Assembly: GCA_025360005.1 (NCBI GenBank)
Contig: JANYDA010000052.1
Location: 58,457-122,456 of the forward strand
Length of the DNA: 64,000 bases
From: Fibrobacteria bacterium
GTDB taxonomy: Bacteria > Fibrobacterota > Fibrobacteria > UBA11236
Reading direction: 5' to 3'
Below the pieces are notes generated by a model. The model did no database searches, was not told the DNA's origin, and saw only the letters and a program-made list of their open reading frames with translations. This document shows, in pieces, positions 1 through 15,168 of the stretch (position 1 is the stretch's first letter; each line of letters begins with the position of its first letter). The position numbers and the translations under genes are program-made.

Positions 1-2801
1 TTAACCGTTTCCGCGGCCGCGGGGGCTCCGTCGATCCAGGCTCGGAGCCAGAGCAGTCCCTGGGGCAAATCCCTGGAGGGAACGGAGGCCTTGGCGGGCG
101 CAGCCGCCCAAGATCGCGAAAATACCCGGCGGCCTTGCGCGTCGAACACGTCCAGACGCAAGGGTCTTCCGGCCTTGGCCGCCACCACCAAATCCGCTCC
201 GGCATAGGAGAGGAAGGCATGTCGTGCCCCCGTTTTCCCATCTGCCGGACTTGAGCCCAGAGGCTTACTGGTGATTCCCGCCCCCGAAAAACGGCCTTCG
301 TCCAGATAGGCGGAAACCAGGGTCAACCCAGATCCGGAAACGCCCTGCTTATGGACCGCCTCGATGTCCAGGAAATCCACCTGGTCTTCGTCGACATCGT
401 CGCTTGTGGAAAGCACGACGGAGAGCCTCCCCTTTGCGGGATCATACACCGATGTTATGCGCGCGCCTTGCACCCCAGAGGTGATGCTCGGAATATCCGT
501 GATGCCATCGGCCACCTGGAAAGCCAGCTCCCCGGACAACAATCCCATGAGGGACTTGCCGGCAAGACGATATCGGTAGCGCGATCCACTGATAAGCTCG
601 GGGGCTTGCAGGAATAACGATGAACCGCCGGCTGCGCCCGCTTTCGCCAATCCCCGCTTAAGGGCGGGCATTCCCGCGGCCTTGGCCTCTTCCACGGGGA
701 ACCTTCCTATCCACCCCATGCCGTACTGGAACACCAAAGCCGCATCGTAGCTGGTGATTTCCCCGTTGCCGCTTACATCGGCCACGGCCTTGGTGAAGTC
801 CGGATAATCGGGATCCGGCAAAGCCATCTTGCCCACCACGTAGTCGATTATCTTCTGCGCGTCGAAAAGATCCACCTCGCCGTTTCCGGTGACGTCCCCA
901 TAGCGGACGGAAGGCTTGGAAACCGTGATCCGACCAGGAACATTGGTCGCGTGAATGATCCCGCCGTCATCGAATTTTACGTCGGCCAGATCCAAGGATG
1001 ATGACGCGCCCGTAGCCGCATCCGAGTTGATCCGGAACCCAAATCGGACCAGCTCTCCCTCCCCATACCCCAGCGGCTTGACGCCGCCGCCCATGGCCAC
1101 CGTCGCCTCATCAGGCCGGGTCTGCTTCCAATCCAGCAGGGGCCAACCCTTAGCCAAGCCGCTATCCGCTTTTACCGCCAAGAGGGTTACCACGGCGGGA
1201 TCGTATTCGAGATAAAACTGCGCGGCGGAAATGGAATCCGCTTCGAAATTGGACAGGTAAAGCGGCACCCATACGGTATCCCCCGCGGTTCCAAAATGCG
1301 ATTTCATGCCCAGGTTCACTTCATGGACCTTAGGCCGTAACTCGGCCGCCATGGCGGCGATGGTATCCGCATCCAAGGCATAATTCCAGATGCTGACTTC
1401 GTCCATGTCGCCCCGGAATTTGAAGTCAATGGGCACGAACGCGCAGTCCCCCAGTAACAGATCCTGAGTCGTTGAAGTCACGGCGTCTATGCTCACGGCA
1501 CGGATGGCATCCAAGACGCCGTCCACGTAGATGCGGAAAACCCTGTCCTTGAAGGTTGCGGCGATATGACGCCATTTGCCCAAGGTGACTTGGGTCTTGC
1601 CCAGGGCTATGTAGTCCCAGCGGCTGGTGAAATTATCCCTTACGTCCGATTGGACCACTCCAGGGGGTACGGGATGGCCTTCGATTTCGTGGATGCGACT
1701 GGGGATCATCAGACGGTAATTCCATTGATCCCCACCCGGCGCGACCCTGTCTATTATCGCCTGATCATGGGTTTTTTCATCGGTGCGAACCCAGGCCTGC
1801 AAGGTGAACTCCGGCGTGTTCATATCCGGCGAAAAAGGCACCCGCACGAGGTTGTCAATTCCGTTGAAGTGCAGCGCATTGCCCTTGACTCCCGCGGTCC
1901 ATGCCGCTCCCGTGATGGTTCCATTATGGCCATTGCCGCTCTTATCGTAAAGCACCGCTCCAGAGGTTTGATCGAAATCGTAATGGACGATCAAGGATTT
2001 GCGCGGCACCGAGGGTCTTTGATATCGACCGAAATCGGCGACCACGGCGCTGTCGGACCACGCGTGATCATAAATGCGCACCTCGTCGAGACTGCCCCTC
2101 AGGAAATAACTTCCTTGCCCGTAGTCAGACGCGCCCAGGGTGAGCGGCTCACTGTCTCCGGCCAGCGGGGAGGCGGGGGCGATGCGGGATCCGTCCGGTT
2201 TCCCGTCTACATATACGAGCAGCTTGCCGGGCTTATAGATGCCGACCACTTGATGCCACGCTCCGTCGCATACATCGGTATGCCCCACAGCAAAGGTCGA
2301 TTCCGGAACCGATGAATTCCAATATCCGGGAACCACGCGCCCCGCAGGCGTCCCCCAACCATCGCCTACGGATCCGGAAAGATGCATGCGGAGGTCGATA
2401 GGCGAGCCTTCGGGGGGTTGCCGGCTGATCAGAGCTTGATGATCAGAGTTATACAGCGTCTTGACCCAGCAGTTCAGGGTCCACTCCTTCAGGGCAAGCC
2501 TGGGATTGAACGGGATAGTAACACGCGAGCTACCATCGAAAACCATGGCTTGGCCGGATACGCCCGTCTCCCAACCGGCATTGCCGGAAACGGTTCCGTT
2601 CAAGCCATGGCCCGAGGCGTCCATCACCGAATCCGAGGGCCCGCCATCGAACCCCCAGTAGCCCACCAGGCCGGCGGTATCCAGCGGCGCTGCCGCCCCA
2701 GCGTTTCCCGGGCAAAAGGCAATGACCAATAATAACACGGCCGATAATCCGGCATAACGCGTCATGGCAGGCCGTATAGCGGCGTTTAATTTAGAGCCCA
2801 T
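1..2801 (-). CDS. Secreted multidomain protein: 2x LamG-like jellyroll + cohesin + dockerin + degenerate cohesin-like + T9SS/FlgD-like C-terminal domain (3' end runs off window)
   Basis: Missing from the ORF track because no stop lies in the window. Manual translation from ATG 2801 (GGGAG RBS; alternative ATG 2765) gives a signal peptide (..GNAGA), LamG1 GLVGYWGFD..WHQVVGIY..LDEVRIY, LamG2 LIVHYDFD..WRHIAATF..MDEVSIW, cohesin GDTVWVPLYLSN..ISAAQFYLEYDPAVV..GEGELVRFGF, dockerin YGDVTGNGEVDLFDA..ADVSGNGEITSYDA and CTD LDVFDAQGRRV. Confidence 0.85.
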   Translation of the reverse strand, partial: MGSKLNAAIRPAMTRYAGLSAVLLLVIAFCPGNAGAAAPLDTAGLVGYWGFDGGPSDSVMDASGHGLNGTVSGNAGWETGVSGQAMVFDGSSRVTIPFNPRLALKEWTLNCWVKTLYNSDHQALISRQPPEGSPIDLRMHLSGSVGDGWGTPAGRVVPGYWNSSVPESTFAVGHTDVCDGAWHQVVGIYKPGKLLVYVDGKPDGSRIAPASPLAGDSEPLTLGASDYGQGSYFLRGSLDEVRIYDHAWSDSAVVADFGRYQRPSVPRKSLIVHYDFDQTSGAVLYDKSGNGHNGTITGAAWTAGVKGNALHFNGIDNLVRVPFSPDMNTPEFTLQAWVRTDEKTHDQAIIDRVAPGGDQWNYRLMIPSRIHEIEGHPVPPGVVQSDVRDNFTSRWDYIALGKTQVTLGKWRHIAATFKDRVFRIYVDGVLDAIRAVSIDAVTSTTQDLLLGDCAFVPIDFKFRGDMDEVSIWNYALDADTIAAMAAELRPKVHEVNLGMKSHFGTAGDTVWVPLYLSNFEADSISAAQFYLEYDPAVVTLLAVKADSGLAKGWPLLDWKQTRPDEATVAMGGGVKPLGYGEGELVRFGFRINSDAATGASSSLDLADVKFDDGGIIHATNVPGRITVSKPSVRYGDVTGNGEVDLFDAQKIIDYVVGKMALPDPDYPDFTKAVADVSGNGEITSYDAALVFQYGMGWIGRFPVEEAKAAGMPALKRGLAKAGAAGGSSLFLQAPELISGSRYRYRLAGKSLMGLLSGELAFQVADGITDIPSITSGVQGARITSVYDPAKGRLSVVLSTSDDVDEDQVDFLDIEAVHKQGVSGSGLTLVSAYLDEGRFSGAGITSKPLGSSPADGKTGARHAFLSYAGADLVVAAKAGRPLRLDVFDAQGRRVFSRSWAAAPAKASVPSRDLPQGLLWLRAWIDGAPAAAETV

Positions 2802-2947: not shown

Positions 2948-2964
2948 CGCAATTGCCGTGCCGG
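2948..2964 (-). promoter_or_regulatory. sigma54 -24/-12 promoter
   Basis: Minus strand reads CCGGCACGGCAATTGCG, i.e. GG-N10-GC close to the YTGGCACG-N4-TTGCW consensus, about 150 nt upstream of ATG 2801. Confidence 0.7.
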
Positions 2965-3121
2965 GGCCACAAGCGCAAGAAAGGAATGGGAAAGCGTATG
3001 GTACCGCGCCTGGTGGTCAAAAGCGCATCAGCATCCCATCCCGGCATTCTGAGGTCCCGAAAGCGGGACTCTCGATGTCAAAAGGGAGAGTAAAGATTTT
3101 TGGGTTCTCCAACGAGTTCCA

Positions 3122-4777
3122 TTATGGGCCGATGATCGGAGGAATAGCGGCGATCGCTTTGAAATGGGCGCGCACTTCCGTGGAATCGAGATCGTAGGAA
3201 TAGATGCGCACTTCATCCATGGCGCCTTGGAATTTGAAATCCACCTGCGGAAACTCGCAATCGCCCAGAAGCAAGTCCTGGCTGGTTGAATCCGAAATCG
3301 CTGGATCCGATCCCGCTATCCGCGCGGTGTCCAATTTTCCATCGACGTAGATGGAAATCCGCCGGGATCGGTTCGTCACCACCACATGATGCCAGCGGCC
3401 GTCGGCTACAAAGACCTTCCCGAAGGCGATTTCCTCAAAGGAAGTGGCGAAGTTCGATCTTACATCGGCTTGGACCACGCCCTTTGGAAAGGGCTGGCCA
3501 TTTACTGATACATCGCGGCCCGGTATCAGCATTCGATAATTCCATATATTGCCGCTTGGCACCACTCGATCGATGATAGACTGGTCACCCTTGGTTTTTA
3601 TAGTGCGGATCCAGGCCTCCAAGCTATATACCCCCAGATTGAAATCCTTTTTGAAGGGAATGGTCACTCTCGAATTCGCGCCATTGAACCACAGCCCTTT
3701 GCCGGAAACACCGTTGGTCCATTCCCCGTTGCTGATAATTCCATCATGACCGTTTCCGGATCTGTCGGAAAGAATCGATCCCGTACCTTCTTCAAAGTCC
3801 CAATGGGCAACAAGCCCGCGCTCCACCTCTTCGGTTGAGTCCACTTTAATAACAACCCGTGCCTGGCATGTATCAGAACCATTTTCAGCGGTGATGGTAT
3901 AGACCAATGCAGAACCTGGATTAGGAACTGATCCATTGATCAATCTCAAGGAGTCGGGGATAAAATAGGTCGAAATATCCCCTAAGGAATCCAGCGAAAA
4001 GCCTGGCGGCAGGGCAGGTGAGGATGAGAAGGAGGCTTTGCCGCCGCGGTAAGTCTTGGGGGCAATTACCTTAGCTCGACCTAAAACAAAATGGACGCCG
4101 TCCGCAGGGTATTCCAAAAAGCGCGGTGGTTCGACTCTCGTGCTGAATACCCGGATCGGCCCGAAAGCCACTGAAAGTCCGGAGACGCGATCCACTCTCC
4201 ATTTGTAGATGCTTCCGTACTTCAACGAAGATACGGACAGTCGCGGTGAGGTCAAACCTGATTTTAGAACCGGAAGGGGTTCGCCCCCCAATGAAACCCT
4301 CCATGTCTCGTTTTCCAAAAGGCTATCCGTATCTGACCAGCTAAGCAGCAGGGTAGTATCCAGGTTTGAAGCGGAGTCCAATGGAGCCTGTAGCGAAAGC
4401 GAATGGATGCCATGGCCGCCTGCCGGGCTCGCTTCGGTTTGCCCCGGACCGATTTGCACTTCCAGTTCCTCCCGCAAAGCTCCAGGCCCGAAACCTCGTA
4501 AGACCATCGAGGCGCGATCGCCTTTATAGTTGCTTACCCGCAACTTTAGGATAGAGTCTCCAGGAGCCGGCCCATTCCAAAGGGTGTCCAGACGGAACCC
4601 AAGGTTATCCTCAATGAATATGAATAGGGAATCGGCGTTTCGTAGTGACTTGGGCAGAAAAACTTGCAATGAATGCCCTCGCGCTTCGGTTTCCTTTTCC
4701 ATTACACAGGACAAAGCGATACCTGCCAAGCATGTAAGAATGAATACCTTTAGTCGATATATACCGTTCCGTTTCAC
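3122..4777 (-). CDS. Lipoprotein with FN3/Ig-like domains and a C-terminal LamG-like domain
   Basis: Lipobox IALSC. YKWRVD FN3-like strand, SSSPALPPGFSLD Ig-like motif, LVAHWDFEEG..WHHVVVT..MDEVRIY. GTG 4777 preferred (GAGGAGG upstream); ORF track start is 4807. Confidence 0.75.
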   Translation of the reverse strand: MKRNGIYRLKVFILTCLAGIALSCVMEKETEARGHSLQVFLPKSLRNADSLFIFIEDNLGFRLDTLWNGPAPGDSILKLRVSNYKGDRASMVLRGFGPGALREELEVQIGPGQTEASPAGGHGIHSLSLQAPLDSASNLDTTLLLSWSDTDSLLENETWRVSLGGEPLPVLKSGLTSPRLSVSSLKYGSIYKWRVDRVSGLSVAFGPIRVFSTRVEPPRFLEYPADGVHFVLGRAKVIAPKTYRGGKASFSSSPALPPGFSLDSLGDISTYFIPDSLRLINGSVPNPGSALVYTITAENGSDTCQARVVIKVDSTEEVERGLVAHWDFEEGTGSILSDRSGNGHDGIISNGEWTNGVSGKGLWFNGANSRVTIPFKKDFNLGVYSLEAWIRTIKTKGDQSIIDRVVPSGNIWNYRMLIPGRDVSVNGQPFPKGVVQADVRSNFATSFEEIAFGKVFVADGRWHHVVVTNRSRRISIYVDGKLDTARIAGSDPAISDSTSQDLLLGDCEFPQVDFKFQGAMDEVRIYSYDLDSTEVRAHFKAIAAIPPIIGP

Positions 4778-4820
4778 GGTGACCACGCCCTCCTCGCATC
4801 CGGCCAATGCGCAACTCGGA

Positions 4821-5324
4821 TCATTGCCGGGTCGCTATCAATAAGGCCGCAGCCACGGAAAGGCTTGCGGTCGCCACTGCTATCCATCGCAGCCTATATC
4901 CCATGGGCCTGATTTTGGATCCCAAAAGCGGATCCGGAGTTATGCTCTGCGGCGCCGCCATGAATTCCCGGCGGATGCGTCCGAACAGAGCTTCCGTTTC
5001 CGGCTTGATCGGCAAATCCAGCGATGATCGCTCGGGTTGCAACCGGAGTAATTGGTACATACAGCTCGAGGCTTTCGATTCCCCACCTTTTTCTTCCGCA
5101 TAGATGGCGCTCAAATACCTGAGGCATTGTCCACGAATAGCTGGCGGCATCGACGGGGACGAAAGCATTAACGTCTCCAGGGATTTCTTGGCATCCTCGC
5201 GTTTTCCGGCGGCGAATGATTGCCGGAGGCGATTTGTATCCAAGGATTGAGCGGAAGGCTTCTCGGATTGCGCATGGAGGGAAAGCGATGCGGCGAGGAT
5301 GCAGCCTGACAAACGCGCGATCAT
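4821..5324 (-). CDS. Exported TPR-like protein with C-terminal TM helix
   Basis: Signal peptide (SLHA|Q), helical TPR-like core CLRYLSAIY..QLLRLQP..LDL, hydrophobic C-terminus. Overlaps the upstream gene by ATGA. Confidence 0.6.
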   Translation of the reverse strand: MIARLSGCILAASLSLHAQSEKPSAQSLDTNRLRQSFAAGKREDAKKSLETLMLSSPSMPPAIRGQCLRYLSAIYAEEKGGESKASSCMYQLLRLQPERSSLDLPIKPETEALFGRIRREFMAAPQSITPDPLLGSKIRPMGYRLRWIAVATASLSVAAALLIATRQ

Positions 5325-6313
5325 GGGCGGAGCATCCCTTTATCAATAACTAGGCCATAGAAATCCCCATAAACATGGGTTCTTCCACCCAATACCGCAA
5401 ACCGGAAGTGCGGATGCAGAGTTTGCCGGATTGCCTGGGCGTTGGAATTATCTATCGCCAACAGGGTGTCCCATTCGCCCTTTTCCGCTGCGGCTGAGTC
5501 CGCGCCCAGGACACGATACCATGTCCCGATCCGTTCAATTTCGGCGGCATAAGTCGTAAGCGGCGCCACGCCGGTGGTAGCCCCGTTCTTTCCGAAACCA
5601 TACCCGGATCCGTTTGCCCCCCCGCTCGTATCGTTTGAAATACTAAAGCCTAGGCTTTCCGAGGCATGGAAATCCGTATCGGCCAAAGGGGACATGAAAA
5701 AATCCATGCGGATATTTTGGATAGGAGCCGAGTCGATTTGTTCATACACCCGCAAACGAAAATCGCCGCTCACCCCGAATGCCCCGGCCAGACCGTCAAC
5801 ATAGTCCTTGCCGCCGGTATCCGGATTGTAATGAAGCTCAAATCCATATTTTTTTTCCCCGCTTTCATCAAACCATGCAAATCGTTCCGTATTCAGGACT
5901 TGGTAATTTTGCCATGCAATCAATCCCGCCGAATCCGGAAAGAAGCCACGTAAGATCCTGGAAACCTTGAAGGGTACGCTGTCCACCGCGCCGCGGCGGT
6001 CCATCAAAGCCAGCTTTCCCGCGAAAGTCCCCAATTGGGGACCATTCATGAAAAGCGTTACGGAGTCTCCCTTTTCGCTCCAGTATTGATGCCCGGGCCA
6101 TGTGGCCGGAACGATACGAGCTTCATCCTCATTGGAATCGCGCACGGAAAATACGCCTACCAGGGAATCGGGAAAGGAAAGGTCTTTTATGATTACCGCT
6201 TCGGAAATCGTCGGAGCCGTATTCTTCAGGCTGATGTCAGTATCATGCAAGCAGGCTGCCAATCCCACCCCGGCCGCCATGGAAAGACCGCATAGCATAC
6301 GCCGCCGGCTCAC
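5321..6313 (-). CDS. Putative Tat-exported lipoprotein, function unknown
   Basis: From GTG 6313: MSRRRMLCGLSMAAGVGLAAC (twin-Arg plus lipobox LAAC), then NTAPTI Ig-like start. Confidence 0.6.
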   Translation of the reverse strand: MSRRRMLCGLSMAAGVGLAACLHDTDISLKNTAPTISEAVIIKDLSFPDSLVGVFSVRDSNEDEARIVPATWPGHQYWSEKGDSVTLFMNGPQLGTFAGKLALMDRRGAVDSVPFKVSRILRGFFPDSAGLIAWQNYQVLNTERFAWFDESGEKKYGFELHYNPDTGGKDYVDGLAGAFGVSGDFRLRVYEQIDSAPIQNIRMDFFMSPLADTDFHASESLGFSISNDTSGGANGSGYGFGKNGATTGVAPLTTYAAEIERIGTWYRVLGADSAAAEKGEWDTLLAIDNSNAQAIRQTLHPHFRFAVLGGRTHVYGDFYGLVIDKGMLRP

Positions 6314-6326
6314 AGGAGACCCCGTT

Positions 6327-7145
6327 TCAAAATTCCCATGCGACCAATACACCGGCATGTTTGGCCGTTAAGGAAAATGAACCGTCTATAGGAAGATTTC
6401 CGAATCTCTTTTTCAGAACCAGGAACTCCGCTAGCATGCATCCTCCCGCGATAAAGCTCCCGGCACCCATGACGCTGAACGCCAGCGTCCTTCGGTCCGC
6501 GGCCCGTACCGCTTTTTTAGCGCTTAGGTAATCCGCCGGCTTTCCGCTCACCGTTGCTGCGTATTCCAAATCACGATAAGCCATCTCTCCCTCCGAGTAT
6601 GAATTGGCAGCAAGAGTTGCGCCAATAACGCCGGCTGAAAACCCGATCAGGCTGAAAACCAAATCCACCTTTGCCCGCCCCCTGGCAGATCCCACAAACC
6701 TTTGGCCGTCCACTTGGCGAACAGAATCCAGATAGGCTTGGCTCTCCAATGTAAACCGGTAATGATCCATGATTTCCTTATCAGCATAGAGAGGATCCAA
6801 AACTATGCCAGAATCGAGTTGTTGCGATTTAATGAATTGGAGGATGGATTCAGTCACCCGCCCCTTGGCGTAGTAGGCTACGCCCAAATCCAATCGGACC
6901 CGTGCAACTTCCTTGTCCTTCAAGTTCCGGTTCAGAGAGAGATGCTCCCCTAAGACGATGACACTGTCGTATTCGGCCCACTTGAAAAATTCTTGGAGCC
7001 GATCGAAATCAGCCCTCTCGGGAGGTTCGCCCCCAACCGACCCAGTTGCGGGCAACCGCAGCATGGCGATCAGGAAAAAGAAAAGCCAAACAATATGGGC
7101 CGTTCCCCAAAGATAAAAGCCGAATCCACGGGTTATAAGCGGCAT
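6327..7145 (-). CDS. TPR-containing membrane protein
   Basis: N-terminal hydrophobic segment, TPR-like LDLGVAYYAKGRVTESILQF..LDP, two C-terminal hydrophobic helices. Start uncertain. Confidence 0.6.
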   Translation of the reverse strand: MPLITRGFGFYLWGTAHIVWLFFFLIAMLRLPATGSVGGEPPERADFDRLQEFFKWAEYDSVIVLGEHLSLNRNLKDKEVARVRLDLGVAYYAKGRVTESILQFIKSQQLDSGIVLDPLYADKEIMDHYRFTLESQAYLDSVRQVDGQRFVGSARGRAKVDLVFSLIGFSAGVIGATLAANSYSEGEMAYRDLEYAATVSGKPADYLSAKKAVRAADRRTLAFSVMGAGSFIAGGCMLAEFLVLKKRFGNLPIDGSFSLTAKHAGVLVAWEF

Positions 7146-9060: not shown

Positions 9061-9105
9061 ATTCATCTTGACCTTGGATTGACAACCCGATTTGGTACTA
9101 CTGAT

Positions 9106-10773
9106 TCAAGGGCGGTCCGGTTCCGATTCCGATTTTTCCAAAATTAACCGAAGCGAAGTGGTTTCACTCGGAACGATTTTAAAGGTGGAATGCAAGGGGC
9201 GGCAACCTTCCCGCACCAGGATCAGTTCATGGACACCGTCTTCCATCTGTATGGGCGATTTGGTGGGAGTGGTTCCCGCTTCTTTACCCTCCACGAACAA
9301 CTTGGCGAAGGGAGGATTGGACTTGACGATCAGGTAGCCTTGCGAGGAGGGTTTCCCAACTTTAGTCCCCTCCGGTCCCCCAGGGTTGCCTACCTGGGGA
9401 TTGTTCTCCACGGCAGCATGCTCCAAATCCGGTCCTGGTTGAATCGGCCTCGGTTGAGAATCTGGCTTACGATACCCAGGTTTTCGTTCGGGATTAAAAG
9501 AGCGGCCGGGTTGGTTTGCCGCAAATTTAAACTGGGAAACTGTCCCGACGGTTGCAGGGCTTAAATCGGCTGTCGGCAGGGAACGCGACGGAGCGAAGGA
9601 TTGGTTGGGTAACTCGGGCGTCACTGGGAAAATTGTAATGGGGGCTTGAGTTCTATGACCCCATTGTCCCGCCACGCCTGCTAGTACGGCCAGGCAAGCC
9701 AATCCCCCTACCAATATTTTTTTCCGGAAACGCAACCGCAATTTTTTCAATAGGTCTTCCGCTTCCAAACGAATTTTTTCCGGCTCCGCACAGAAGGTTT
9801 CCGCCAGAGCATAGCCTTTCAAGGCCTCGCGCGGCTTGGCATGGCCTCGCACAAGCCTTGCGTGGTCCAGGAAGTGATCGGATATCTCTCGCTCCTCTTT
9901 TTCGCGGTATATGGCGGCATCCGCAAGGAAAGCCGCCAGCCTCCGCGGTTCAAAAAGAAATCCGAGCCCGCGCGCCAGGGCCTCCAATTCCGCCAGGCAT
10001 TCCCGAGCGTTAGGGCGCGCTTGCGGATCTTTGGCCAGCATGGATTCTATGAGCTCCGGCAGCCCGGGCAAAATCTTCCGGTTCAGGCTTGTAGGCTTGG
10101 CGGGAGTCCTTTCCATGATGGCCCGCAGTACGGAATGGGGCGTATCCCCCTCAAAGGGAAGCCTTCCGGCAAGGCATCGATAGAAAAGGATCCCCATGGA
10201 AAAAATATCAGTTCTATCGGTCGCCTCGCGCCCGTCGGCTTGTTCAGGCGCCGAATATCCCGGGGTTCCCAGGAAGGATCCGGTGCGGGTGATGGACGTT
10301 TCCCCTGAAAGGAATGCGATACCGAAATCGGCAATGCGGACGCAACCTTTCTTGTCGAGGAGCACGTTGGAGGGTTTGATATCGCGGTGGTAGATGCCGC
10401 GGTCATGAGCGGAGGCCAGACCTTGCAGTAACTGTTGGAACAAGGACAACGATGCCAGGTTTGGAAGCGTGACGGCTTCGCCCTTCAACAAGGTGTCAAG
10501 GTTCACGCCGTCGATATATTCCATAGCCAGGAAAAGATTTCGTTCCTGATTTCCGTACTCGAACACCTTGATGATATTTTCGTGGGACAGCGCTGCGATA
10601 GCGACCGCCTCCTTGGCGAACCTTTTGACCATGTCCGCATGGTTATGCAAGTGCGGATGCAGTTTCTTAAGGGCAACCTTGCGGCGCAGAACATTGTCCT
10701 GAGCCAGATAGACCGTGGCCGTAGAACCGGAGGCGATTTCCTCCAAAATCGTATATCGCTCCGGATTGAGCAT
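9106..10773 (-). CDS. Hanks-type Ser/Thr protein kinase with TM helix and C-terminal PEGA domain
   Basis: VALKKL, HRDIKPSN, DFG, GTPGYSAPE, TDIFSMG. TM KKILVGGLACLAVLAGVAG, Pro-rich linker, PEGA GYLIVKSNPPFAKLFVEG..GTTP. ATG 10773 preferred. Confidence 0.92.
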   Translation of the reverse strand: MLNPERYTILEEIASGSTATVYLAQDNVLRRKVALKKLHPHLHNHADMVKRFAKEAVAIAALSHENIIKVFEYGNQERNLFLAMEYIDGVNLDTLLKGEAVTLPNLASLSLFQQLLQGLASAHDRGIYHRDIKPSNVLLDKKGCVRIADFGIAFLSGETSITRTGSFLGTPGYSAPEQADGREATDRTDIFSMGILFYRCLAGRLPFEGDTPHSVLRAIMERTPAKPTSLNRKILPGLPELIESMLAKDPQARPNARECLAELEALARGLGFLFEPRRLAAFLADAAIYREKEEREISDHFLDHARLVRGHAKPREALKGYALAETFCAEPEKIRLEAEDLLKKLRLRFRKKILVGGLACLAVLAGVAGQWGHRTQAPITIFPVTPELPNQSFAPSRSLPTADLSPATVGTVSQFKFAANQPGRSFNPERKPGYRKPDSQPRPIQPGPDLEHAAVENNPQVGNPGGPEGTKVGKPSSQGYLIVKSNPPFAKLFVEGKEAGTTPTKSPIQMEDGVHELILVREGCRPLHSTFKIVPSETTSLRLILEKSESEPDRP

Positions 10774-10995: not shown

Positions 10996-11832
10996 TTAGG
11001 GCGTTCCCTTCCAGATATTCCCAGCGGAATTAATGGCGATGGTAAAACCATTGCCCCGATCTATTTCGGTGGCGAGGCCGTTGTCGCAAAGGTCCCATGT
11101 AGATCCGGTCCATTTGTAAATCTTGCTTGACCCCTCGGTAATCCAAACTTGGCCATCCGGTCCAGCGCCAATGCCATATGCTTTAATCGATCCCCGTTTG
11201 ATCCAAGAACCCCCTGTCAACTGATAGATATCGTTTTGTCCGTTGATGATCCAAGGGTTTCCGCCGTTATCCACGGTGATCCGCATCCCAAAGGCGCCGG
11301 AAGAAACCTTCCACAGACCGTTTACGAGTTGTAAGACCTCATATCCGTATGTTCTATCGAAGACACCGCCCACTGCCCAGACTTGTCCATTACCGGCGCC
11401 AATGTCCTGTATCGTTGCTGTGCCGAACGCGTTTGAAAAAGCGTTGTAAAGCACCCAATTCATTCCGACTGAATTTGCTTTGAATGCGTTGCCGGCGCTG
11501 TTTACGACCCAGACATTCCCATTGTTTTCTACTTCAACCCGAACGCCACGCCCAATGGAGGCGGATGGTGTCCATGCTGGAGAAGGAGAACTCAAATCAT
11601 AATATTGGACCGCTTGGTCTCCCGGACCCGCATCGATTCTCCAGATTTTGCTCGCGGAACTCGCAGCGATTTCTTTGCCAGCTCCCGGAAGTTGGACCCA
11701 ATTCAAGCCCGACATTGCCCCATAGGATAGCTCGTTTTTTTGAGGGCCCACAGTTTGTTCCGATTGGAGGCATCCTCCGAACAAAAGCGATCCAACCGTC
11801 ACGATGGGAATAAGTAGCACTTGCTTCTTCAT
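10996..11832 (-). CDS. Tectonin-like six-bladed beta-propeller lectin lipoprotein (copy 1)
   Basis: Lipobox FGGC; six repeats such as IQDIGAGNGQVWAVG and RITVDNGGNPWIIN. AGGAG RBS favours ATG 11832. Confidence 0.8.
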   Translation of the reverse strand: MKKQVLLIPIVTVGSLLFGGCLQSEQTVGPQKNELSYGAMSGLNWVQLPGAGKEIAASSASKIWRIDAGPGDQAVQYYDLSSPSPAWTPSASIGRGVRVEVENNGNVWVVNSAGNAFKANSVGMNWVLYNAFSNAFGTATIQDIGAGNGQVWAVGGVFDRTYGYEVLQLVNGLWKVSSGAFGMRITVDNGGNPWIINGQNDIYQLTGGSWIKRGSIKAYGIGAGPDGQVWITEGSSKIYKWTGSTWDLCDNGLATEIDRGNGFTIAINSAGNIWKGTP

Positions 11833-11900
11833 TTTCATCTCCTAAGTATTGGCTATAATTTTCTCTGGGAATTCCGGGATATAGACCGAATAGCAAGCAA

Positions 11901-11917
11901 TGCAAGTTGCGAGCCAA
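11901..11917 (-). promoter_or_regulatory. sigma54 -24/-12 promoter of tectonin copy 1
   Basis: Minus strand TTGGCTCGCAACTTGCA (GG-N10-GC). Confidence 0.8.
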
Positions 11918-12182
11918 TTCCAAAGGGCGGTTAATCGCAGCGTGTTTTAGAATTTAAAGGACGAGAATCGGTTGAGAATCCCTTAGTAGGGATTCTGATC
12001 CCAATTTCAAAACAGGGTAAGAATAATGGTTTCAAAAAATGATATCGCGATCATGTTGGTTTGGGCTAAGGTCAACAAAATTCTGGTTATATAAAATCAT
12101 GACTTTCTTTGAAATAGTTTGGCCCACTTATTGTAAGAGAAGCTCCCAAGACACTTCCATTTCCTAAATCCAAGGAGTTTAT

Positions 12183-12260
12183 GTGAAAATCTTTTCTTAT
12201 TGCCTTGAATCCTGTTTGATTTTTCTGACCGCGTCCATTCTGGACCTGAAAAGGCAGTGA
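12183..12260 (+). pseudogene. Remnant 5' end of an astacin-lipoprotein paralogue
   Basis: AAGGAG-GTG ORF MKIFSYCLESCLIFLTASILDLKRQ* aligns at nucleotide level with the astacin signal region 13618-13695. Its promoter copy (12120-12135, TGGCCCACTTATTGTA) has GT in place of the -12 GC. Confidence 0.55.
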
Positions 12261-12359: not shown

Positions 12360-12384
12360 GTCACCAGAGGATCCGTCTGGTGAC
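12360..12384. terminator. Hairpin downstream of tectonin copy 2
   Basis: GTCACCAGA-N7-TCTGGTGAC perfect 9-bp stem; no clear U-tract. Confidence 0.4.
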
Positions 12385-12433
12385 CTAGATTCAAACAGCG
12401 GTCGCATCCAATGGGTTCAAGGACCCGAAATCC

Positions 12434-13264
12434 TCAGGGCGTTCCTTTCCAAATCTGGTTCGCGGAGTTGATGGCAATAGTGAATCCATTCCCTCGATCG
12501 ATCTCGGTCGCGAGGCCATTGTCGCAAAGATCCCAGGTGGATCCAGTCCACTTGTAGATTCTGCTGGAAGGAATCGGCCCAGAAATCCAAACTTGCCCAT
12601 CGGGCCCGGCGCCTATACCGTATGCCTTGATGGTTCCCCTCTTAACCCAGTTGCCACCGGTAAGCTGGAAGACATCGCTCTGGAGGTTGATGACCCATGG
12701 AGCTCCGTTCTTGTCCACCGTGACGCGCATCGCTCGCGCTGCGGAAGACCACCATTTGCCATTTACCAGGTTGAAAACCTCGTAGCCGTAGGTGGCGTCG
12801 TAACTGCCACCGACTGCCCATACCTGGTTATTGCCGCCTGCGCCTATATCGCGTATGGTGATCGTTCCGCTGGGATCCTGCGTATTGTATTTGACCCAGT
12901 TGTTTCCGTTGACGTCCGCTTTCCAGGCATCGCCGAGGCTGTTCACGGCCCAGACGCTTCCTCCATTCTCAACCTCTATCCGCACTCCCGATCCGATGCT
13001 GGGCTGGATCCAGGCGGAGGTAGAGGGATCCCAGTACTGGACTTTTTGATCCCCGCTACCCGCATTGATTTTCCAGATCCTGCCAGACGAACTGACGGCG
13101 ATTTCCTTCCCGGTCCCGGGAAGCTGCGTCCAATTCAATCCCGAAAGGGCTCCGTAACTAAGGTCATTTTTTTGGGGCCCGGTCGTCTGCTCGGGTTGCA
13201 GACAGCCTCCCAGAAAAAGCGATCCAACTGCCACTAGAGGAATTAACCAAACTTGTTTCTGCAT
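12434..13264 (-). CDS. Tectonin-like beta-propeller lectin lipoprotein (copy 2)
   Basis: Lipobox LGGC; close paralogue of 10996..11832 (identical C-terminal block IYKWTGSTWDLCDNGLATEIDRGNGFTIAINSA). Confidence 0.8.
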   Translation of the reverse strand: MQKQVWLIPLVAVGSLFLGGCLQPEQTTGPQKNDLSYGALSGLNWTQLPGTGKEIAVSSSGRIWKINAGSGDQKVQYWDPSTSAWIQPSIGSGVRIEVENGGSVWAVNSLGDAWKADVNGNNWVKYNTQDPSGTITIRDIGAGGNNQVWAVGGSYDATYGYEVFNLVNGKWWSSAARAMRVTVDKNGAPWVINLQSDVFQLTGGNWVKRGTIKAYGIGAGPDGQVWISGPIPSSRIYKWTGSTWDLCDNGLATEIDRGNGFTIAINSANQIWKGTP

Positions 13265-13332
13265 TTCGTCTCCTAAATTTTGGCCTTTATTTTCTCAGGT
13301 GATTCCGAGATCTAGACCGACTATGCAAGCAA

Positions 13333-13349
13333 TGCAATACGCGAGCCAA
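13333..13349 (-). promoter_or_regulatory. sigma54 -24/-12 promoter of tectonin copy 2
   Basis: Minus strand TTGGCTCGCGTATTGCA (GG-N10-GC). Confidence 0.8.
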
Positions 13350-13553
13350 ATACAAATGTGGCCGTTTGATGCGCGTTTTTAGAATTCAAAGGGCGAAAGT
13401 CGGTTGAAAATAGCCCGGGATTGAGATTCCAATCCCAATTTTAGGACTGAGCAGAAACAAGGATTTTCAAAAATGGTATTGCGACCCTGTGGACTTGGGA
13501 AAATTTCAACAAAAACCTGGCCGTATGAAATCCATTCTTTCTTCAAAAAAGAA

Positions 13554-13569
13554 TGGCCCACTTATCGCA
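13554..13569 (+). promoter_or_regulatory. sigma54 -24/-12 promoter of astacin gene
   Basis: TGGCCCACTTATCGCA: GG at 13555-56, GC at 13567-68. Confidence 0.55.
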
Positions 13570-13617
13570 AGAGAAATCCACCAAGGCATTTCAATCCCTT
13601 TTCCCTACGGAGTTTAC

Positions 13618-15168
13618 ACGGAAATTTTTTTCTTTTCCCTTCAGTCCGGTTCGGTTTTTTTGATCTTGGCTATTTTGGGTTGCCAAGGCACTGAACCTAC
13701 TGCAATGGTGGATATACCTACCGGGAAGGAATCAACCACCAACGAAAATGCAGGTGGCAATTTAAAGAGCGGTATACTCAAAAGTGGCTGCTTGTTGGGT
13801 GAACCCATTGCATACAAGGAAATTGACGGTGACGCGGTTTTTATGGGAGACATGATCCTAAGCCCGGAGCAATTACGTTGCCCGGACACAACGGCGAAGC
13901 CTACCGGCGCAGCCCGCAGCGCTGTTGGCGCAAGGTGGCCCTACAACAAAGTTTATTACAACTTTGCTCCCGGTTTTTCAGGTCAAGATATCGTAATGAA
14001 TGCTATTTCCCAATGGGAGTCCCACACAAAGATCCGCTTCCTAGTTCGGCAAAATGAGCAAAATTGGATCACCTTCTCGGACGATGGTTCGGATTGTAAG
14101 TCATTCGTCGGGATGCAAGGGGGAAATCAAACCGTGAAGCTTCCTGGATGCAGCACTGGAAATACAATCCATGAAATTGGGCACGCTTTAGGACTGTATC
14201 ACGAGCAAATGAGAGCGGCACGGGACAATGACATCATTATGCATCCTGAAAACGCTGACCCAGCCAGTGCCGTTAATTTCAAAACATATCTCCAACTTTC
14301 AAAGGATGGTTTCGACCAAGGACCTTTTGATTTCGGATCTATCATGCTATATGGTTCCTATTTCTATTCAAAAAACGGATTACCCACTATGACAAAAAAG
14401 GATGGCAGTACGTTTGGGAGCCAAAGGACCGCCCCCTCAGCGGGTGATATCTCCCTGATAAACTTTCTCTATCCCCAACCTTGGAATCTGTTGCCGGGGC
14501 AGGCCCGAGATATCGGTGTAGGAGCGAATGGCACGGCATGGATCATCGGCTCTACTAAGGTGGGTTCAGCGGGGGATTATAATATCGCACGATGGACGGG
14601 ATCCGGATGGATTACCGTTGGAGGTGGTGGAGTAAGGATAGACGTGGACCCAGCAGGGAATCCATGGGTGGTGAATGCAAGCCATGGTATTTATTACTGG
14701 AATGGAACATCCTTTTTACATATGCCCGGCAATGCAAATGATATCGGTATAGGTGCTGACGGATCCGTCTTTATTATTAGTAATACATTATATTCTAACA
14801 AAAAGGATTTCTACATTCAAAAATGGAATGGCTCTTCTTGGGTGACTTTGCCCGGTGCCGGGGTTCGCATCTCAGCCGATCAATCGGGCCATCCTTGGGT
14901 GGTAAATTCGAGTGGTACCATTTATGCATGGAGCGGCTCTAGCTGGGTCCTGCAACCAGGAATGGCATCGGACATAGGAATTGGTACCGAAGGGTCCGTC
15001 TTCATCACGTCAACGACGGCTATTCCTGGTACACACGATTACTATTTTGAAAAGCAAAGCACTTATGGATGGGTTTTAACTGGCGGGGCAGGCGTTAGCA
15101 TTGACGCGGGTCCCGGAGGCGTACCCTGGGGAACCAATTCTAGCTTATCCGTTTATAACCAACTTTGA
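13618..15168 (+). CDS. Astacin-family (M12A) zinc metalloprotease lipoprotein with C-terminal tectonin propeller
   Basis: HEIGHALGLYH (HExxHxxGxxH), Met-turn SIMLY, prodomain GDMIL, six tectonin blades, lipobox ILGC. Start uncertain (ACG 13618, ATG 13525, GTG 13489). Confidence 0.85.
   Translation, partial: TEIFFFSLQSGSVFLILAILGCQGTEPTAMVDIPTGKESTTNENAGGNLKSGILKSGCLLGEPIAYKEIDGDAVFMGDMILSPEQLRCPDTTAKPTGAARSAVGARWPYNKVYYNFAPGFSGQDIVMNAISQWESHTKIRFLVRQNEQNWITFSDDGSDCKSFVGMQGGNQTVKLPGCSTGNTIHEIGHALGLYHEQMRAARDNDIIMHPENADPASAVNFKTYLQLSKDGFDQGPFDFGSIMLYGSYFYSKNGLPTMTKKDGSTFGSQRTAPSAGDISLINFLYPQPWNLLPGQARDIGVGANGTAWIIGSTKVGSAGDYNIARWTGSGWITVGGGGVRIDVDPAGNPWVVNASHGIYYWNGTSFLHMPGNANDIGIGADGSVFIISNTLYSNKKDFYIQKWNGSSWVTLPGAGVRISADQSGHPWVVNSSGTIYAWSGSSWVLQPGMASDIGIGTEGSVFITSTTAIPGTHDYYFEKQSTYGWVLTGGAGVSIDAGPGGVPWGTNSSLSVYNQL

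What the first reader, a model, noticed from the sequence alone, without database searches (positions are those of the whole stretch)
1..15168. Self-contained kinase -> FHA-sigma54 activator -> lectin/protease/scaffold regulon
Seen: a PEGA-domain membrane Ser/Thr kinase (9106-10773) converges on an FHA-like-GAF-AAA+ sigma54 activator (7273-9060). Four correctly spaced GG-N10-GC motifs lie directly upstream of exported genes in the same island: 2948-2964 (LamG-cohesin-dockerin), 11901-11917 and 13333-13349 (two tectonin lipoproteins) and 13554-13569 (astacin-tectonin protease). A degenerate fifth copy lies at 12120-12135. I found no comparable motifs in front of the housekeeping genes. Known: FHA domains bind phosphothreonine, FHA-EBP/Pkn pairs are characteristic of myxobacteria, and tectonins bind surface glycans. 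Inference: a surface-sensing phosphothreonine cascade switches on a glycan-recognition plus proteolysis kit (prey or host attachment, or defence) in a non-myxobacterial lineage.
Basis: partly seen in the sequence, partly recalled or inferred. Interest (0 to 1): 0.82.

Follow-up and report, generated by a model that had tools for sequence, protein, structure and literature searches.

The report
Kinase-linked sigma-54 lectin regulon, Fibrobacteria
An uncultured Fibrobacteria genome carries a conserved kinase, membrane protein and sigma-54 activator next to exported sugar-binding and protease genes that have sigma-54 promoters and a shared upstream repeat, a well-supported but fairly ordinary kind of regulon.

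Summary
Two motifs, 11901-11916 and 13333-13348 before the tectonin lipoprotein genes, rank 17th and 13th of 4029 gene upstream regions. rpoN is present. The motifs at 2948 and 13554 are no better than chance by score alone. They gain support from context. Tectonin genes in relatives carry sigma-54 motifs 40-68 nt before the start codon (5 of 9 against a 5% background). A dyad found here, TCCC-N6-GGGA, lies 46-98 nt upstream. In this genome's intergenic DNA it pairs with a sigma-54-like site only at 3055-3068 and 11979-11992.

The kinase lies within about 6 kb of the activator ortholog in 9 of 9 informative loci, together with a small TPR-like membrane protein.

The activator's N-terminal domain has the FHA fold, but the phosphothreonine-contact residues are replaced in all orthologs. 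The classical pThr-FHA step is therefore unlikely, although kinase-activator coupling remains probable.

The target genes vary between genomes. The prey, host or defence role has no support here. I rate this a new variant of a known kind, of moderate interest.

The parts
1..2765 (-). LamG x2 / cohesin / dockerin exported protein. The gene runs 15 nt past the window start. The frame is open from TTG 2921, and the likely start is ATG 2765 or 2801, just before the signal peptide.
   Evidence: Pfam Laminin_G_3 1.8e-44, Cohesin 2.4e-10, Dockerin_1 3.4e-8. N-terminus read. Followed outside the window by GT4, methyltransferase and GT4 genes.
2948..2963 (-). Weak sigma-54-like -24/-12 motif, CGGCACGGCAATTGCG, 146-182 nt before the likely start codon.
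   Evidence: 11.5 bits, not above chance alone. Gains support from the dyad at 3055-3068. Not conserved before distant homologs: 1 of 3 informative.
3055..3068 (.). Perfect palindromic dyad TCCCGAAAGCGGGA (as 16 bp, GTCCCG-N4-CGGGAC), centred 98 nt upstream of the 2948 motif. Candidate activator binding site.
   Evidence: It is 1 of only 2 intergenic dyads in the genome with a sigma-54-like site 30-130 nt downstream. It was not in the set used to find the dyad.
3122..4807 (-). LamG-domain protein, 561 aa.
   Evidence: Pfam Laminin_G_3 4.3e-19.
4821..5324 (-). Small exported protein with a C-terminal membrane anchor. By eye it has the same layout as the TPR-like partner protein.
   Evidence: Translation. 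No Pfam family.
5321..6358 (-). Lipoprotein of unknown family. The likely start is GTG 6313 or ATG 6298.
   Evidence: No Pfam family. The sigma-54-like string at 6246-6261 falls inside its signal-peptide codons, so it is not a promoter.
6327..7145 (-). TPR-like membrane protein (family F02). In relatives it is the conserved partner gene that directly follows the kinase gene.
   Evidence: Clustering. Alignment with the FKWGEYDS motif. Weak TPR_16 match.
7273..9060 (+). Sigma-54 activator: degenerate FHA-like domain (1-95), GAF, AAA+ with GSFTGA loop, HTH_8.
9106..10773 (-). Membrane Hanks-type Ser/Thr kinase with an extracytoplasmic Pro-rich linker and a PEGA domain.
10996..11838 (-). Tectonin lipoprotein Tec280.
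   Evidence: Pfam Tectonin 4.8e-15. Lipobox LLFGGC.
11901..11916 (-). Strong sigma-54 promoter motif, TGGCTCGCAACTTGCA, 62 nt before the ATG. Predicted start of transcription about 11889-11891.
   Evidence: 15.1 bits, rank 17 of 4029 gene upstream regions.
11979..12002 (.). Array of alternating TCCC / GGGA arms 10 bp apart (TCCCTTAGTAGGGATTCTGATCCC). Candidate enhancer shared by the divergent promoters.
12120..12135 (+). Degenerate copy of the astacin-tectonin promoter. It has no GC at -12.
   Evidence: 8.0 bits. Paralogous to 13554-13569.
12183..12260 (+). 25-codon remnant of the 5' end of an astacin-tectonin gene, left by a tandem duplication of about 1.43 kb.
12434..13264 (-). Tectonin lipoprotein Tec276, 70% identical to Tec280.
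13333..13348 (-). Strong sigma-54 promoter motif, TGGCTCGCGTATTGCA, 68 nt before the ATG. Predicted start of transcription about 13321-13323.
   Evidence: 15.4 bits, rank 13 of 4029.
13417..13446 (.). Degenerate dyads, each with one mismatch: GGGATTGAGATTCC, GAGATTCCAATCCC and TCCCAATTTTAGGA.
13554..13569 (+). Weak sigma-54-like motif, TGGCCCACTTATCGCA, 48 nt before the position homologous to the start codon.
   Evidence: 10.8 bits. Conserved block in both paralogous spacers. Orthologs in G004, G013 and G014 have a motif 40-60 nt upstream.
13618..15168 (+). Astacin-tectonin lipoprotein. The zinc motif HEIGHALGLYHE is intact. The codon homologous to the start is ACG, and the frame is open from GTG 13489.
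   Evidence: Pfam Astacin 2.7e-34, Tectonin 7.1e-19.. Sequence identical in two DNA-run contigs.

Best explanation
The window comes from an uncultured Fibrobacterota (class Fibrobacteria) genome. It holds a lineage-restricted signalling core of three conserved genes:
- a membrane Hanks-type Ser/Thr kinase whose outer part is a PEGA domain;
- a small TPR-like membrane-anchored protein;
- a cytoplasmic sigma-54 activator with an FHA-fold domain, a GAF domain, an AAA+ motor and a Fis-type HTH.

I infer that the activator binds arrays of TCCC-N6-GGGA dyads, with arms 10 bp apart, about 45-100 bp upstream of -24/-12 promoters. There it would drive sigma-54 RNA polymerase to transcribe genes for exported carbohydrate-binding proteins.

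The confidence in each target in this genome differs:
- The duplicated tectonin lipoprotein genes are strong candidates.
- The divergently transcribed astacin-tectonin protease is a moderate candidate, and its start codon is damaged.
- The LamG-cohesin-dockerin gene, with the glycosyltransferase genes that follow it, is a moderate to weak candidate.

I infer that the kinase and its membrane partner sense something at the cell surface and set the activator's activity. They probably act by phosphorylating the activator or docking on it without phosphate, not by classical phosphothreonine-FHA recognition. The GAF domain may add a second, small-molecule input.

What is shown: the genes, the motifs, their rank in the genome, their conservation and the synteny. 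What is inferred: every binding, phosphorylation and activation step.
For: Sigma-54 machinery:
- rpoN is intact.
- The activator has Sigma54_activat at 221 bits, a GSFTGA loop, Walker A and B motifs and HTH_8.

Promoters:
- The two tectonin-lipoprotein sites are among 13 intergenic sites at 15 bits or more in the genome. They rank 13th and 17th of 4029 gene upstream regions.
- Other top sites lie next to other activator genes, so the matrix finds real sites.
- The -24/-12 blocks are conserved islands in the two paralogous spacers.
- In relatives, 5 of 9 tectonin-family genes have a site of 10 bits or more, against 5.0% of all genes (binomial 3.5e-5; the genomes are kin and not independent).
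- The motif ends 40-68 nt before a start codon that follows a Shine-Dalgarno sequence.

Enhancer:
- An unbiased dyad search over 9 promoters found TCCCG-N4-CGGGA in 6 and GGATT-N2-AATCC in 5.
- The largest count was 4 in 200 shuffled sets and 4 in 300 sets of real intergenic windows.
- The core TCCC-N6-GGGA occurs 222 times in the genome, 26 of them intergenic. Only 2 intergenic copies have a sigma-54-like site 30-130 nt downstream, and both are in this island.
- Only 1 of 44 intergenic sigma-54 sites of 12 bits or more has the dyad upstream, and it is the Tec280 site.
- Five of the window's 7 copies lie in the first 13.2 kb; shuffles give 2.5 for the whole window.
- Perfect copies lie 46-98 nt upstream in G003 (two promoters), G004, G008, G012, G013 and G026. 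They are often paired 20 bp apart.
- Four of these promoters were not in the discovery set: LamG-cohesin-dockerin, G008 Ig-like, G012 F5/8C and G026.

Coupling of the genes:
- The kinase lies within about 6 kb of the activator ortholog in 9 of 9 loci whose contig reaches far enough. One of these, L019 from G011, is flagged unpublished. Seven further loci are cut off.
- The TPR-like gene follows the kinase gene in most of these loci.
- Tectonin genes lie next to the kinase in G000, G003, G004 and G013.
- All tectonin genes of G000 are in this island.
Against: - No transcript data exist. No RNA run holds the stretch.
- The genome has 17 strong sigma-54 activators, so the assignment to this one rests on proximity, synteny and the dyad.
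- G014 has an astacin-tectonin gene with a sigma-54 motif and near-dyads, but no ortholog of the activator was found with this query. Its best match was 35% identity, and the genome is 95% complete.
- In G012 the tectonin genes are on contigs other than the activator's.
- The second tectonin promoter (13333) and the 13554 promoter have only one-mismatch dyads.
- The dyad is mostly missing at promoters beside the more distant orthologs in G015 and G031.
- The dyad was defined after I had seen the data.
- The weight matrix uses recalled frequencies.
- The dyad at 3055-3068 could instead be a hairpin ending the upstream gene, although no T-run follows it.
- The FHA-like domain lacks the residues known to hold phosphothreonine, which weakens the most obvious kinase-to-activator route.
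- The kinase and activator genes converge, so they are not one operon. A sigma-70-like promoter candidate precedes the kinase gene.
Confidence: 0.6

Rival explanations
1. The kinase autophosphorylates or phosphorylates a partner on threonine, and the activator's FHA domain binds that phosphothreonine in the classical pocket, as in Myxococcus FHA activators or PknH-EmbR. This binding switches the AAA+ motor on.
For: The domain is FHA-fold. Yop-YscD_cpl scores 39.1 bits against a cut-off of 33.2. A profile of 9 orthologs matches the FHA domains of GarA, OdhI and Rv1747 at E about 1e-6. The kinase is always nearby and has all catalytic motifs.
Against: Pfam FHA scores 14.4 bits, below its 20.7 cut-off. 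Aligned to GarA, the G-R is G-S/T/K, S-R-R-H is P-x-V-A, and the S-x-N-G-T loop is not kept. Only structural residues (G25, N67, G79, D80, G85) are invariant in the orthologs aligned, 7 and 9. The best Pfam family, the YscD type, is known from recall as an FHA fold that does not bind phosphothreonine.
Confidence: 0.15
2. The activator is controlled mainly through its GAF domain by a small molecule, or through the FHA-like domain by another protein. The kinase and TPR-like protein act in parallel on other substrates of the same cell-surface process, so the synteny reflects shared function and not a cascade.
For: The GAF domain is well conserved. GAF-controlled activators such as NorR need no kinase (abstract seen). 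The kinase and activator genes converge and are not co-transcribed. The neighbourhood is full of envelope-glycan genes: GT4, YfhO-like, NamZ and a nucleotidyltransferase.
Against: The kinase-activator adjacency in 9 of 9 informative loci survives rearrangements across several genera. That is more than shared pathway membership usually gives.
Confidence: 0.2
3. The promoters are real sigma-54 promoters but are served by another of the genome's 17 activators. The neighbouring activator controls something else.
For: There are 17 strong activators. G014 has a tectonin promoter without a detected ortholog of this activator. A paralog on contig C35 that aligns to the query from residue 17 at 35% identity, so probably also carries an FHA-like N-terminus (not scanned), is matched at about 34-36% identity in most, though not all, genomes of the genus.
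Against: The dyad is found at promoters beside orthologs of this activator in several genomes, and nowhere else in G000 in combination with a sigma-54 site. The C35 paralog has an unrelated recognition helix.
Confidence: 0.08
4. The motifs are chance matches, and the genes are read from ordinary sigma-70 promoters.
For: The loose pattern is not enriched in the window. The 2948 and 13554 sites score in the chance range. A look-alike at 6246-6261 is only signal-peptide codons.
Against: For the two tectonin sites: the genome-wide rank, conservation in the paralogous spacers, recurrence before tectonin genes in five other genomes at a fixed distance and the phased dyads.
Confidence: 0.03

Closest known systems
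Myxococcus xanthus sigma-54 activators with an FHA domain (Jelsbak, Givskov and Kaiser 2005). I saw only its entry in the reference list of PMC12288465. The paper itself is not held, so its content is recalled.
   Same: An NtrC-family AAA+ activator whose sensory end is an FHA-type domain instead of a receiver domain, in a genome with Hanks kinases. The output is a developmental or surface programme.
   Different: This one is in Fibrobacterota. It has an added GAF domain. The FHA-like domain lacks the phosphothreonine contacts. The kinase is a fixed neighbour.
PknH-EmbR of Mycobacterium tuberculosis. The EmbR chain 2fez appeared at E 0.12. The biology is recalled.
   Same: A membrane Ser/Thr kinase paired with a transcription activator that carries an FHA domain. 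The targets are cell-envelope glycan genes.
   Different: EmbR is an OmpR/SARP-type sigma-70 activator with a canonical FHA domain. Here the activator is an AAA+ sigma-54 type with a degenerate FHA.
NorR and other GAF-controlled sigma-54 activators with several enhancer sites (abstracts of PMC2941729 and PMC2831303, seen in the listing).
   Same: A GAF domain ahead of the AAA+ motor. Several dyad sites upstream of a -24/-12 promoter.
   Different: NorR senses NO through iron and has no kinase partner and no FHA-like domain. The dyad sequence here is different and untested.
YscD/EscD-type FHA-fold domains (Pfam PF16697).
   Same: The best-scoring family for residues 14-91. An FHA fold without the canonical pocket.
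   Different: Those are ring components of type III secretion systems, not transcription factors.
Eukaryotic tectonins (titles and abstracts in the listing, for example PMC2707011, a human tectonin that binds bacterial LPS).
   Same: The tectonin beta-propeller repeat scores above the Pfam cut-off.
   Different: These are bacterial lipoproteins, one of them fused to an astacin protease. No ligand is known. In the 41 genomes searched the family was found only in this genus (6 of 41).
PD-T4-6 single-kinase anti-phage defence (PADLOC models).
   Same: The kinase domain matches many PD-T4-6 models, the best at 275 bits.
   Different: The match is generic Hanks-kinase similarity. None of the lectin, protease or partner genes matches a defence model (0 of 7 non-kinase, non-AAA+ proteins).

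Membership tests
Sigma-54 (-24/-12) promoter | GG and GC ten bases apart, on the strand of the downstream gene | tested here: met
   Met at 2948, 11901, 13333 and 13554. Not met at 12120, which has GT in place of GC.
Sigma-54 (-24/-12) promoter | Match to the extended consensus TGGCAC-N5-TTGCW beyond chance in this genome | tested here: met
   Met for 11901 (15.1 bits) and 13333 (15.4 bits), which rank 17th and 13th of 4029. For 2948 (11.5) and 13554 (10.8) the score alone is in the chance range. The matrix frequencies are recalled. The consensus is as quoted in PMC12316311 (passages).
Sigma-54 (-24/-12) promoter | rpoN present in the genome | tested here: met
   Sigma54_DBD at 211 bits in a 608-aa open frame without stops.
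Sigma-54 (-24/-12) promoter | Transcription start about 12 nt after the GC, and dependence on rpoN and an activator | not testable with these tools
   No RNA run holds the stretch.
Bacterial enhancer-binding protein (NtrC family) | AAA+ sigma-54 interaction domain with a GAFTGA-type loop and Walker motifs, plus a DNA-binding HTH | tested here: met
   PF00158 at 221 bits, AAA_lid_14 and HTH_8. GETGTGKD, GSFTGA and LFLDEIGE read.
FHA domain (phosphothreonine reader) | Score above the Pfam FHA (PF00498) cut-off | tested here: not met
   14.4 bits against 20.7. Three orthologs score 14.5-20.0, all below the cut-off.
FHA domain (phosphothreonine reader) | FHA fold | tested here: met
   Yop-YscD_cpl (same clan) scores 39.1 bits against 33.2. 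A profile matches the GarA, OdhI and Rv1747 FHA domains at E 1.5e-6 to 7e-6. No structure was predicted.
FHA domain (phosphothreonine reader) | Conserved contact residues: the Arg of G-R, the Ser and His of S-x-x-H, and the Asn of the S-x-N-G-T loop. This list is recalled. | tested here: not met
   They are replaced by G-S/T/K, P-x-V-A and a non-conserved loop in 7 of 7 close orthologs aligned.
Hanks-type Ser/Thr kinase | Pkinase domain with the catalytic Lys, HRD and DFG | tested here: met
   174 bits. VALKK, HRDIKPSN and DFG are invariant in 5 of 5 aligned.
Tectonin beta-propeller lectin | Tectonin repeats above the Pfam cut-off | tested here: met
   56.0, 47.9 and 68.6 bits against a cut-off of 30. 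Sugar binding was not tested.
Astacin (M12A) metalloprotease | Astacin domain with the HExxHxxGxxH zinc site | tested here: met
   119 bits. HEIGHALGLYHE read. A usable start codon is in doubt.
Cohesin-dockerin scaffold | Cohesin and dockerin type I domains | tested here: met
   41.2 and 34.0 bits, both above their cut-offs. A partner for either module was not looked for.
Anti-phage defence system (PADLOC) | The system's component genes all matched | tested here: not met
   Only generic kinase and AAA+ domain matches. There were 0 matches for the 7 other proteins.

The most novel reading that the evidence does not exclude
A Hanks kinase, together with a TPR-like co-sensor, controls a sigma-54 activator through an FHA-fold domain that has lost the phosphothreonine pocket. 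This would be a coupling mode not yet described. The activator would read a new enhancer made of TCCC/GGGA arms phased every 10 bp. The module would serve as a portable switch in Fibrobacteria for a fast-changing set of secreted lectins, adhesins and a lectin-guided protease, deployed when the cell surface meets a particular glycan.
Probability: 0.25. Interest if true: 0.65.

Novelty: new variant of a known kind. Interest (0 to 1): 0.45.

Why it matters
Sigma-54 regulons and Ser/Thr-kinase signalling are almost unstudied in Fibrobacterota. My search for 'Fibrobacteres' together with 'sigma-54' returned 3 papers, none on this subject judged from titles and abstract openings. A 2025 survey of sigma-54 regulons does not contain the word Fibrobacter.

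This work gives a concrete regulon to test:
- defined promoters;
- a predicted enhancer sequence with coordinates;
- a three-gene sensor core;
- a clear question of how a kinase talks to an activator whose FHA domain cannot read phosphothreonine in the usual way.

It also shows bacterial tectonin lipoproteins and an astacin-tectonin fusion as regulated, exported proteins. That is a lead on how these uncultured bacteria handle glycans at their surface. It is not a new kind of system.

Tried and rejected
Ideas tested and dropped:
- Loose-pattern enrichment in the window: none. There were 246 matches against 273 +/- 13 in shuffles.
- The sigma-54-like string at 6246-6261 (13.9 bits) lies inside the lipoprotein signal-peptide codons of the 345-aa gene. 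The string at 6609-6624 is inside a gene.
- My first enhancer idea was GGAWTCC or GGRATY hexamers. They were enriched about 4-fold (32 in 10 windows against about 8 expected). The idea was post hoc and did not hold at distant loci. The dyad search replaced it.
- Sigma-54 motifs before LamG-cohesin-dockerin homologs in the genus: 1 of 3 informative. These are only 32-39% identical and are not clear orthologs.
- Sigma-54 motifs before the glycosyltransferase gene beside the activator in relatives: 0 of 7 at 9 bits or more.
- Sigma-54 motifs before the Ig-like surface protein gene: 1 of 5, in G008.
- Rfam families in window 1-17000: none at E up to 1.
- PADLOC: generic matches only.

Searches that gave little or nothing:
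- RNA evidence: no RNA holder is listed. Contigs of two DNA runs, which may be the source of this DNA, only confirmed the sequence over 10900-15200.
- The metagenome scan for closer relatives of the activator gave 3 loci at 44-45% identity in the N-terminal part.
- Literature: the Jelsbak 2005 paper is not held. Searches found nothing on an FHA-GAF sigma-54 activator paired with a kinase outside myxobacteria, nor on bacterial astacin-tectonin proteins. The library lacks most subscription journals. Paper supplements were not consulted.

Full report
**What the window is.** The window is G000:C62:58457-122456 of a 4.98-Mb, 65-contig genome with 60% G+C. Loci anchored on the neighbouring gene at 15232-16131 come from records titled as Fibrobacterota, Fibrobacteres or Fibrobacteria metagenome-assembled genomes. 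The first 15 kb have a lower G+C of 0.49-0.55.

**Genes**. In order along the window:
- 1-2921(-): LamG x2, cohesin and dockerin. The signal peptide starts at ATG 2765 or 2801.
- 3122-4807(-): a LamG protein.
- 4821-5324(-) and 5321-6358(-): two exported proteins with no Pfam family. The second is a lipoprotein.
- 6327-7145(-): a membrane protein with a weak TPR match.
- 7273-9060(+): the sigma-54 activator.
- 9106-10773(-): the kinase, with Pkinase, a membrane helix, a Pro-rich linker and PEGA.
- 10996-11838(-) and 12434-13264(-): two tectonin lipoproteins, 70% identical.
- 13618-15168(+): an astacin-tectonin lipoprotein.

To the right lie a nucleotidyltransferase, NamZ and a GT2 gene. To the left, outside the window, lie GT4, methyltransferase, GT4, a YfhO-like gene and others. 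The island therefore sits among cell-envelope glycan genes.

**The observation.** I scored every position of the genome with a 16-column matrix whose frequencies I recalled; the consensus agrees with passages of PMC12316311.
- At 15 bits or more there are 39 sites, 13 of them intergenic. That is 30 per Mb of intergenic DNA against 5.7 per Mb of coding DNA.
- At 10-11 bits the two densities converge.
- The two tectonin-lipoprotein sites score 15.1 and 15.4 bits. Taking the best site within -200 to +150 of each of 4029 called genes, they rank 17th and 13th.
- Many higher-ranking sites lie beside other activator genes, which speaks for the matrix.
- The 2948 site (11.5 bits) and the 13554 site (10.8 bits) are unremarkable by score. 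The 12120 copy (8.0 bits) has lost the GC.
- Outside the island, the window's only intergenic hit at 10.5 bits or more is one of 11.5 bits.
- rpoN is present and intact.
- The gene calls are my own simple longest-ORF calls, so start positions are approximate.

**A duplication explains part of the pattern.** The spacers 11839-12260 and 13265-13700 are paralogous. One unit of about 1.43 kb was duplicated in tandem. The unit held the tectonin gene, the divergent promoter region and the first codons of the astacin-tectonin gene. The left copy keeps a 25-codon remnant (GTG 12183 to the stop at 12260). The two strong sites are therefore one promoter copied, and 12120 is the decayed twin of 13554. 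Within the diverged spacers, the -24/-12 blocks of both strands stand out as conserved.

In the intact astacin-tectonin gene, the codon that aligns with the remnant's GTG is ACG (13618). It sits behind a retained GGAG. The only in-frame ATG upstream (13525) lies before the promoter motif. Contigs of two DNA runs read the same letters, although these runs may be the source of the assembly. The gene may be poorly translated or decaying.

**Relatives.** Full-length orthologs of the activator at 54-60% identity occur in G004, G008, G011, G012, G013 and G019; G003 has a partial match of 442 residues at 55%. More distant orthologs at 41-47% occur in G015, G018, G026 and G031. All are in the same order. 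Nothing comparable was found in the 9 same-class genomes searched. By its N-terminal half the family is small: 24 proteins, 23 of them (all but P0030) listed with PF16697 plus GAF plus the sigma-54 domain.

I mapped the island's proteins onto 13 fetched loci plus 3 metagenome loci. The usual order is:
- the kinase gene;
- then the TPR-like gene;
- then a large Ig-like surface protein gene, converging on the activator gene;
- beyond the activator, the GT4, LamG and related genes.

The kinase is present in 9 of 9 loci that extend far enough: L014, L015, L016, L018, L019, L021, L022, L025 and L050. L019 comes from the unpublished G011. The other 7 loci end before the place where the kinase would be. 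In one locus (L022) the kinase, the TPR-like gene, an unknown gene, the activator and a cohesin protein gene form one co-directional string.

The block lies next to the nucleotidyltransferase gene in 4 of 15 anchored loci and in L050, so the locus is variable.

**Tectonin genes.** Pfam Tectonin was found in 6 of 41 genomes, counting G000, and only in this genus. In G003, G004 and G013 these genes lie beside the kinase gene and are read divergently from it. In G012 and G014 they are on other contigs. G008, G011 and G019 have the activator but no tectonin match.

I used the same region rule as for the background. Of the 9 tectonin-family genes in relatives, 5 have a site of 10 bits or more and 4 have one of 12 bits or more. 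The background rates are 5.0% and 1.7%, giving binomial values of 3.5e-5 and 1.1e-5. The genomes are kin, so these values overstate the case. The four misses are two genes that follow another gene closely, one gene in G012 and one site of 8.6 bits.

Where the start codon is clear, the motif ends 40-68 nt before it and a Shine-Dalgarno sequence intervenes. Promoters beside the activator in genomes without tectonin precede other exported proteins:
- an Ig-like surface protein in G008;
- VIT-VWA and VIT proteins with a T9SS tail in G015 and G031;
- a GSDH-like propeller in G004;
- an F5/8 type C protein next to the tectonin gene in G012.

**A shared upstream element.** I searched for palindromic dyads with 5-nt arms, spacers of 0-8 and at most one mismatch. 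The input was the 200 nt upstream of nine tectonin-type promoters from six genomes. TCCCG-N4-CGGGA was found in 6 and GGATT-N2-AATCC in 5. The largest count in 200 shuffled sets was 4, reached once. In 300 sets of nine real intergenic windows the largest count was 4, reached 17 times.

These overlapping dyads reduce to arms TCCC and GGGA alternating every 10 bp, with the core TCCC-N6-GGGA. In G000:
- The core occurs 222 times, 26 of them intergenic.
- Only two intergenic copies have a sigma-54-like site of 10 bits or more 30-130 nt downstream. These are 11979-11992, before the Tec280 promoter, and 3055-3068, before the LamG-cohesin-dockerin motif.
- Of the 44 intergenic sigma-54 sites of 12 bits or more, only the Tec280 site has the dyad upstream.
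- Five of the window's seven copies lie in the first 13.2 kb; shuffles of the whole window give 2.5 +/- 1.6.

In relatives, perfect copies are centred 46-98 nt upstream of the -24 motif start at promoters in G003 (two), G004, G008, G012, G013 and G026. Pairs 20 bp apart, at -78/-58 or -88/-68, recur in G003, G004, G012, G013 and G014. The promoters of LamG-cohesin-dockerin, the G008 Ig-like protein, the G012 F5/8C protein and the G026 protein were not in the discovery set.

This is the best evidence that the LamG-cohesin-dockerin gene belongs with the tectonin genes. It also gives a candidate binding site for the activator.

There are limits to this evidence:
- The 13333 and 13554 promoters have only one-mismatch copies.
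- Promoters beside the distant orthologs mostly lack the dyad.
- The element was refined after I had looked at the data.
- The copy at 3055 could be a hairpin at the end of the upstream gene.

The recognition helix is GRSTFFR(H/Y)L in the close orthologs and SRSTFFRYL (SRATLFRRL in G015a) in the distant ones. The C35 paralog has an unrelated helix.

**The kinase-to-activator step.** The activator's first 95 residues score above the cut-off for the YscD-type FHA-fold family and below it for FHA proper. A profile of nine orthologs finds true FHA domains in the PDB: GarA, OdhI and Rv1747, at E about 1e-6. In that alignment the residues that hold phosphothreonine in GarA are replaced:
- G-R becomes G-S/T/K.
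- S-R-R-H becomes P-x-V-A.
- The S-x-N-G-T loop is not conserved.

Only fold-keeping glycines, N67 and D80 are invariant, together with R5, R45 and R70. The list of contact residues is recalled.

The fold is therefore FHA, but the classical pocket is missing. Given the fixed synteny I still think the kinase controls the activator, at about 0.6-0.7. I put the classical pThr-FHA route at about 0.15. The kinase gene has its own sigma-70-like candidate promoter and a weak hairpin after the tectonin gene upstream, so read-through from the sigma-54 promoter is possible but not shown.

**Function.** Tectonins of eukaryotes bind microbial glycans (listing). Nothing here tests what these bacterial proteins bind. 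PADLOC gives only generic domain matches, and Rfam gives nothing. The safest statement is this: the module switches on exported carbohydrate-binding and adhesive proteins plus one lectin-tagged protease. The set differs between genomes, and the module sits within an envelope-glycan gene neighbourhood.

**Verdict.** The regulon idea is supported and is strengthened by a predicted enhancer. The phosphothreonine-FHA mechanism and the ecological story are not supported. Kinase-paired, FHA-type sigma-54 activators are known from myxobacteria (recalled; reference seen). This is therefore a new variant in a little-studied phylum, not a new kind of system.

Noticed in passing
window 13489-13630: The astacin-tectonin gene has ACG (13618) where the duplicated remnant has the start codon GTG. 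The GGAG ribosome-binding site is retained. The only upstream in-frame ATG (13525) lies before the promoter motif. The gene may be weakly translated or decaying. Contigs of two DNA runs show the same letters.
   Followed up: partly
window 11839-13700: A tandem duplication of about 1.43 kb copied a tectonin gene, the divergent promoter region and 25 codons of the astacin-tectonin gene (remnant at 12183-12260). The two tectonin proteins are 70% identical.
   Followed up: yes
window 4821-5324 and 6327-7145: By eye, the 167-aa protein has the same layout as the TPR-like kinase partner: a signal peptide, a short helical repeat region and a C-terminal membrane anchor. It may be a distant paralog. 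No alignment statistics were run.
   Followed up: no
window 6246-6261: A sigma-54-like string of 13.9 bits is only the codons for G-L-A-A-C-L-H of a lipoprotein signal peptide. Lipobox codons can mimic the motif.
   Followed up: yes
window 13108-13121: A perfect TCCCGGTCCCGGGA dyad lies inside the coding region of the second tectonin gene, on the transcribed side of its promoter. Its meaning is unknown.
   Followed up: no
G000:C62:49500-58440 (locus L057): Directly after the LamG-cohesin-dockerin gene come GT4, methyltransferase and GT4 genes on the same strand. Nearby are a YfhO-like gene, an LPG_synthase_TM gene, a methyltransferase gene and an APH-type kinase gene. One GT4 scores 60 bits on Pfam's 'GT4 in conflict systems' family.
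   Followed up: partly
L030 2000-5100 (G012): The promoters of an F5/8 type C protein gene and of a tectonin gene share about 120 nt of near-identical upstream sequence, including the dyads and the -24/-12 motif. This is a second case of promoter duplication.
   Followed up: partly
G000:C35:7870-9543: A paralogous activator at 35% identity that aligns to the query from residue 17, so it probably also has an FHA-like N-terminus (not scanned). It lacks the G-R pair and has a different recognition helix. Comparable matches at about 34-36% identity occur in most, though not all, genomes of the genus.
   Followed up: partly
L028 11968-15948 (G013): One open frame of 1327 aa joins an astacin-tectonin to further tectonin propellers. 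The same contig holds a second astacin-tectonin gene, so the family is expanding in that genome.
   Followed up: no
window 1-15200: The island's G+C is 0.49-0.55 against 0.60 for the genome. The block is present beside the nucleotidyltransferase gene in only 4 of 15 anchored relatives. Both points fit a variable, possibly transferred, locus.
   Followed up: partly
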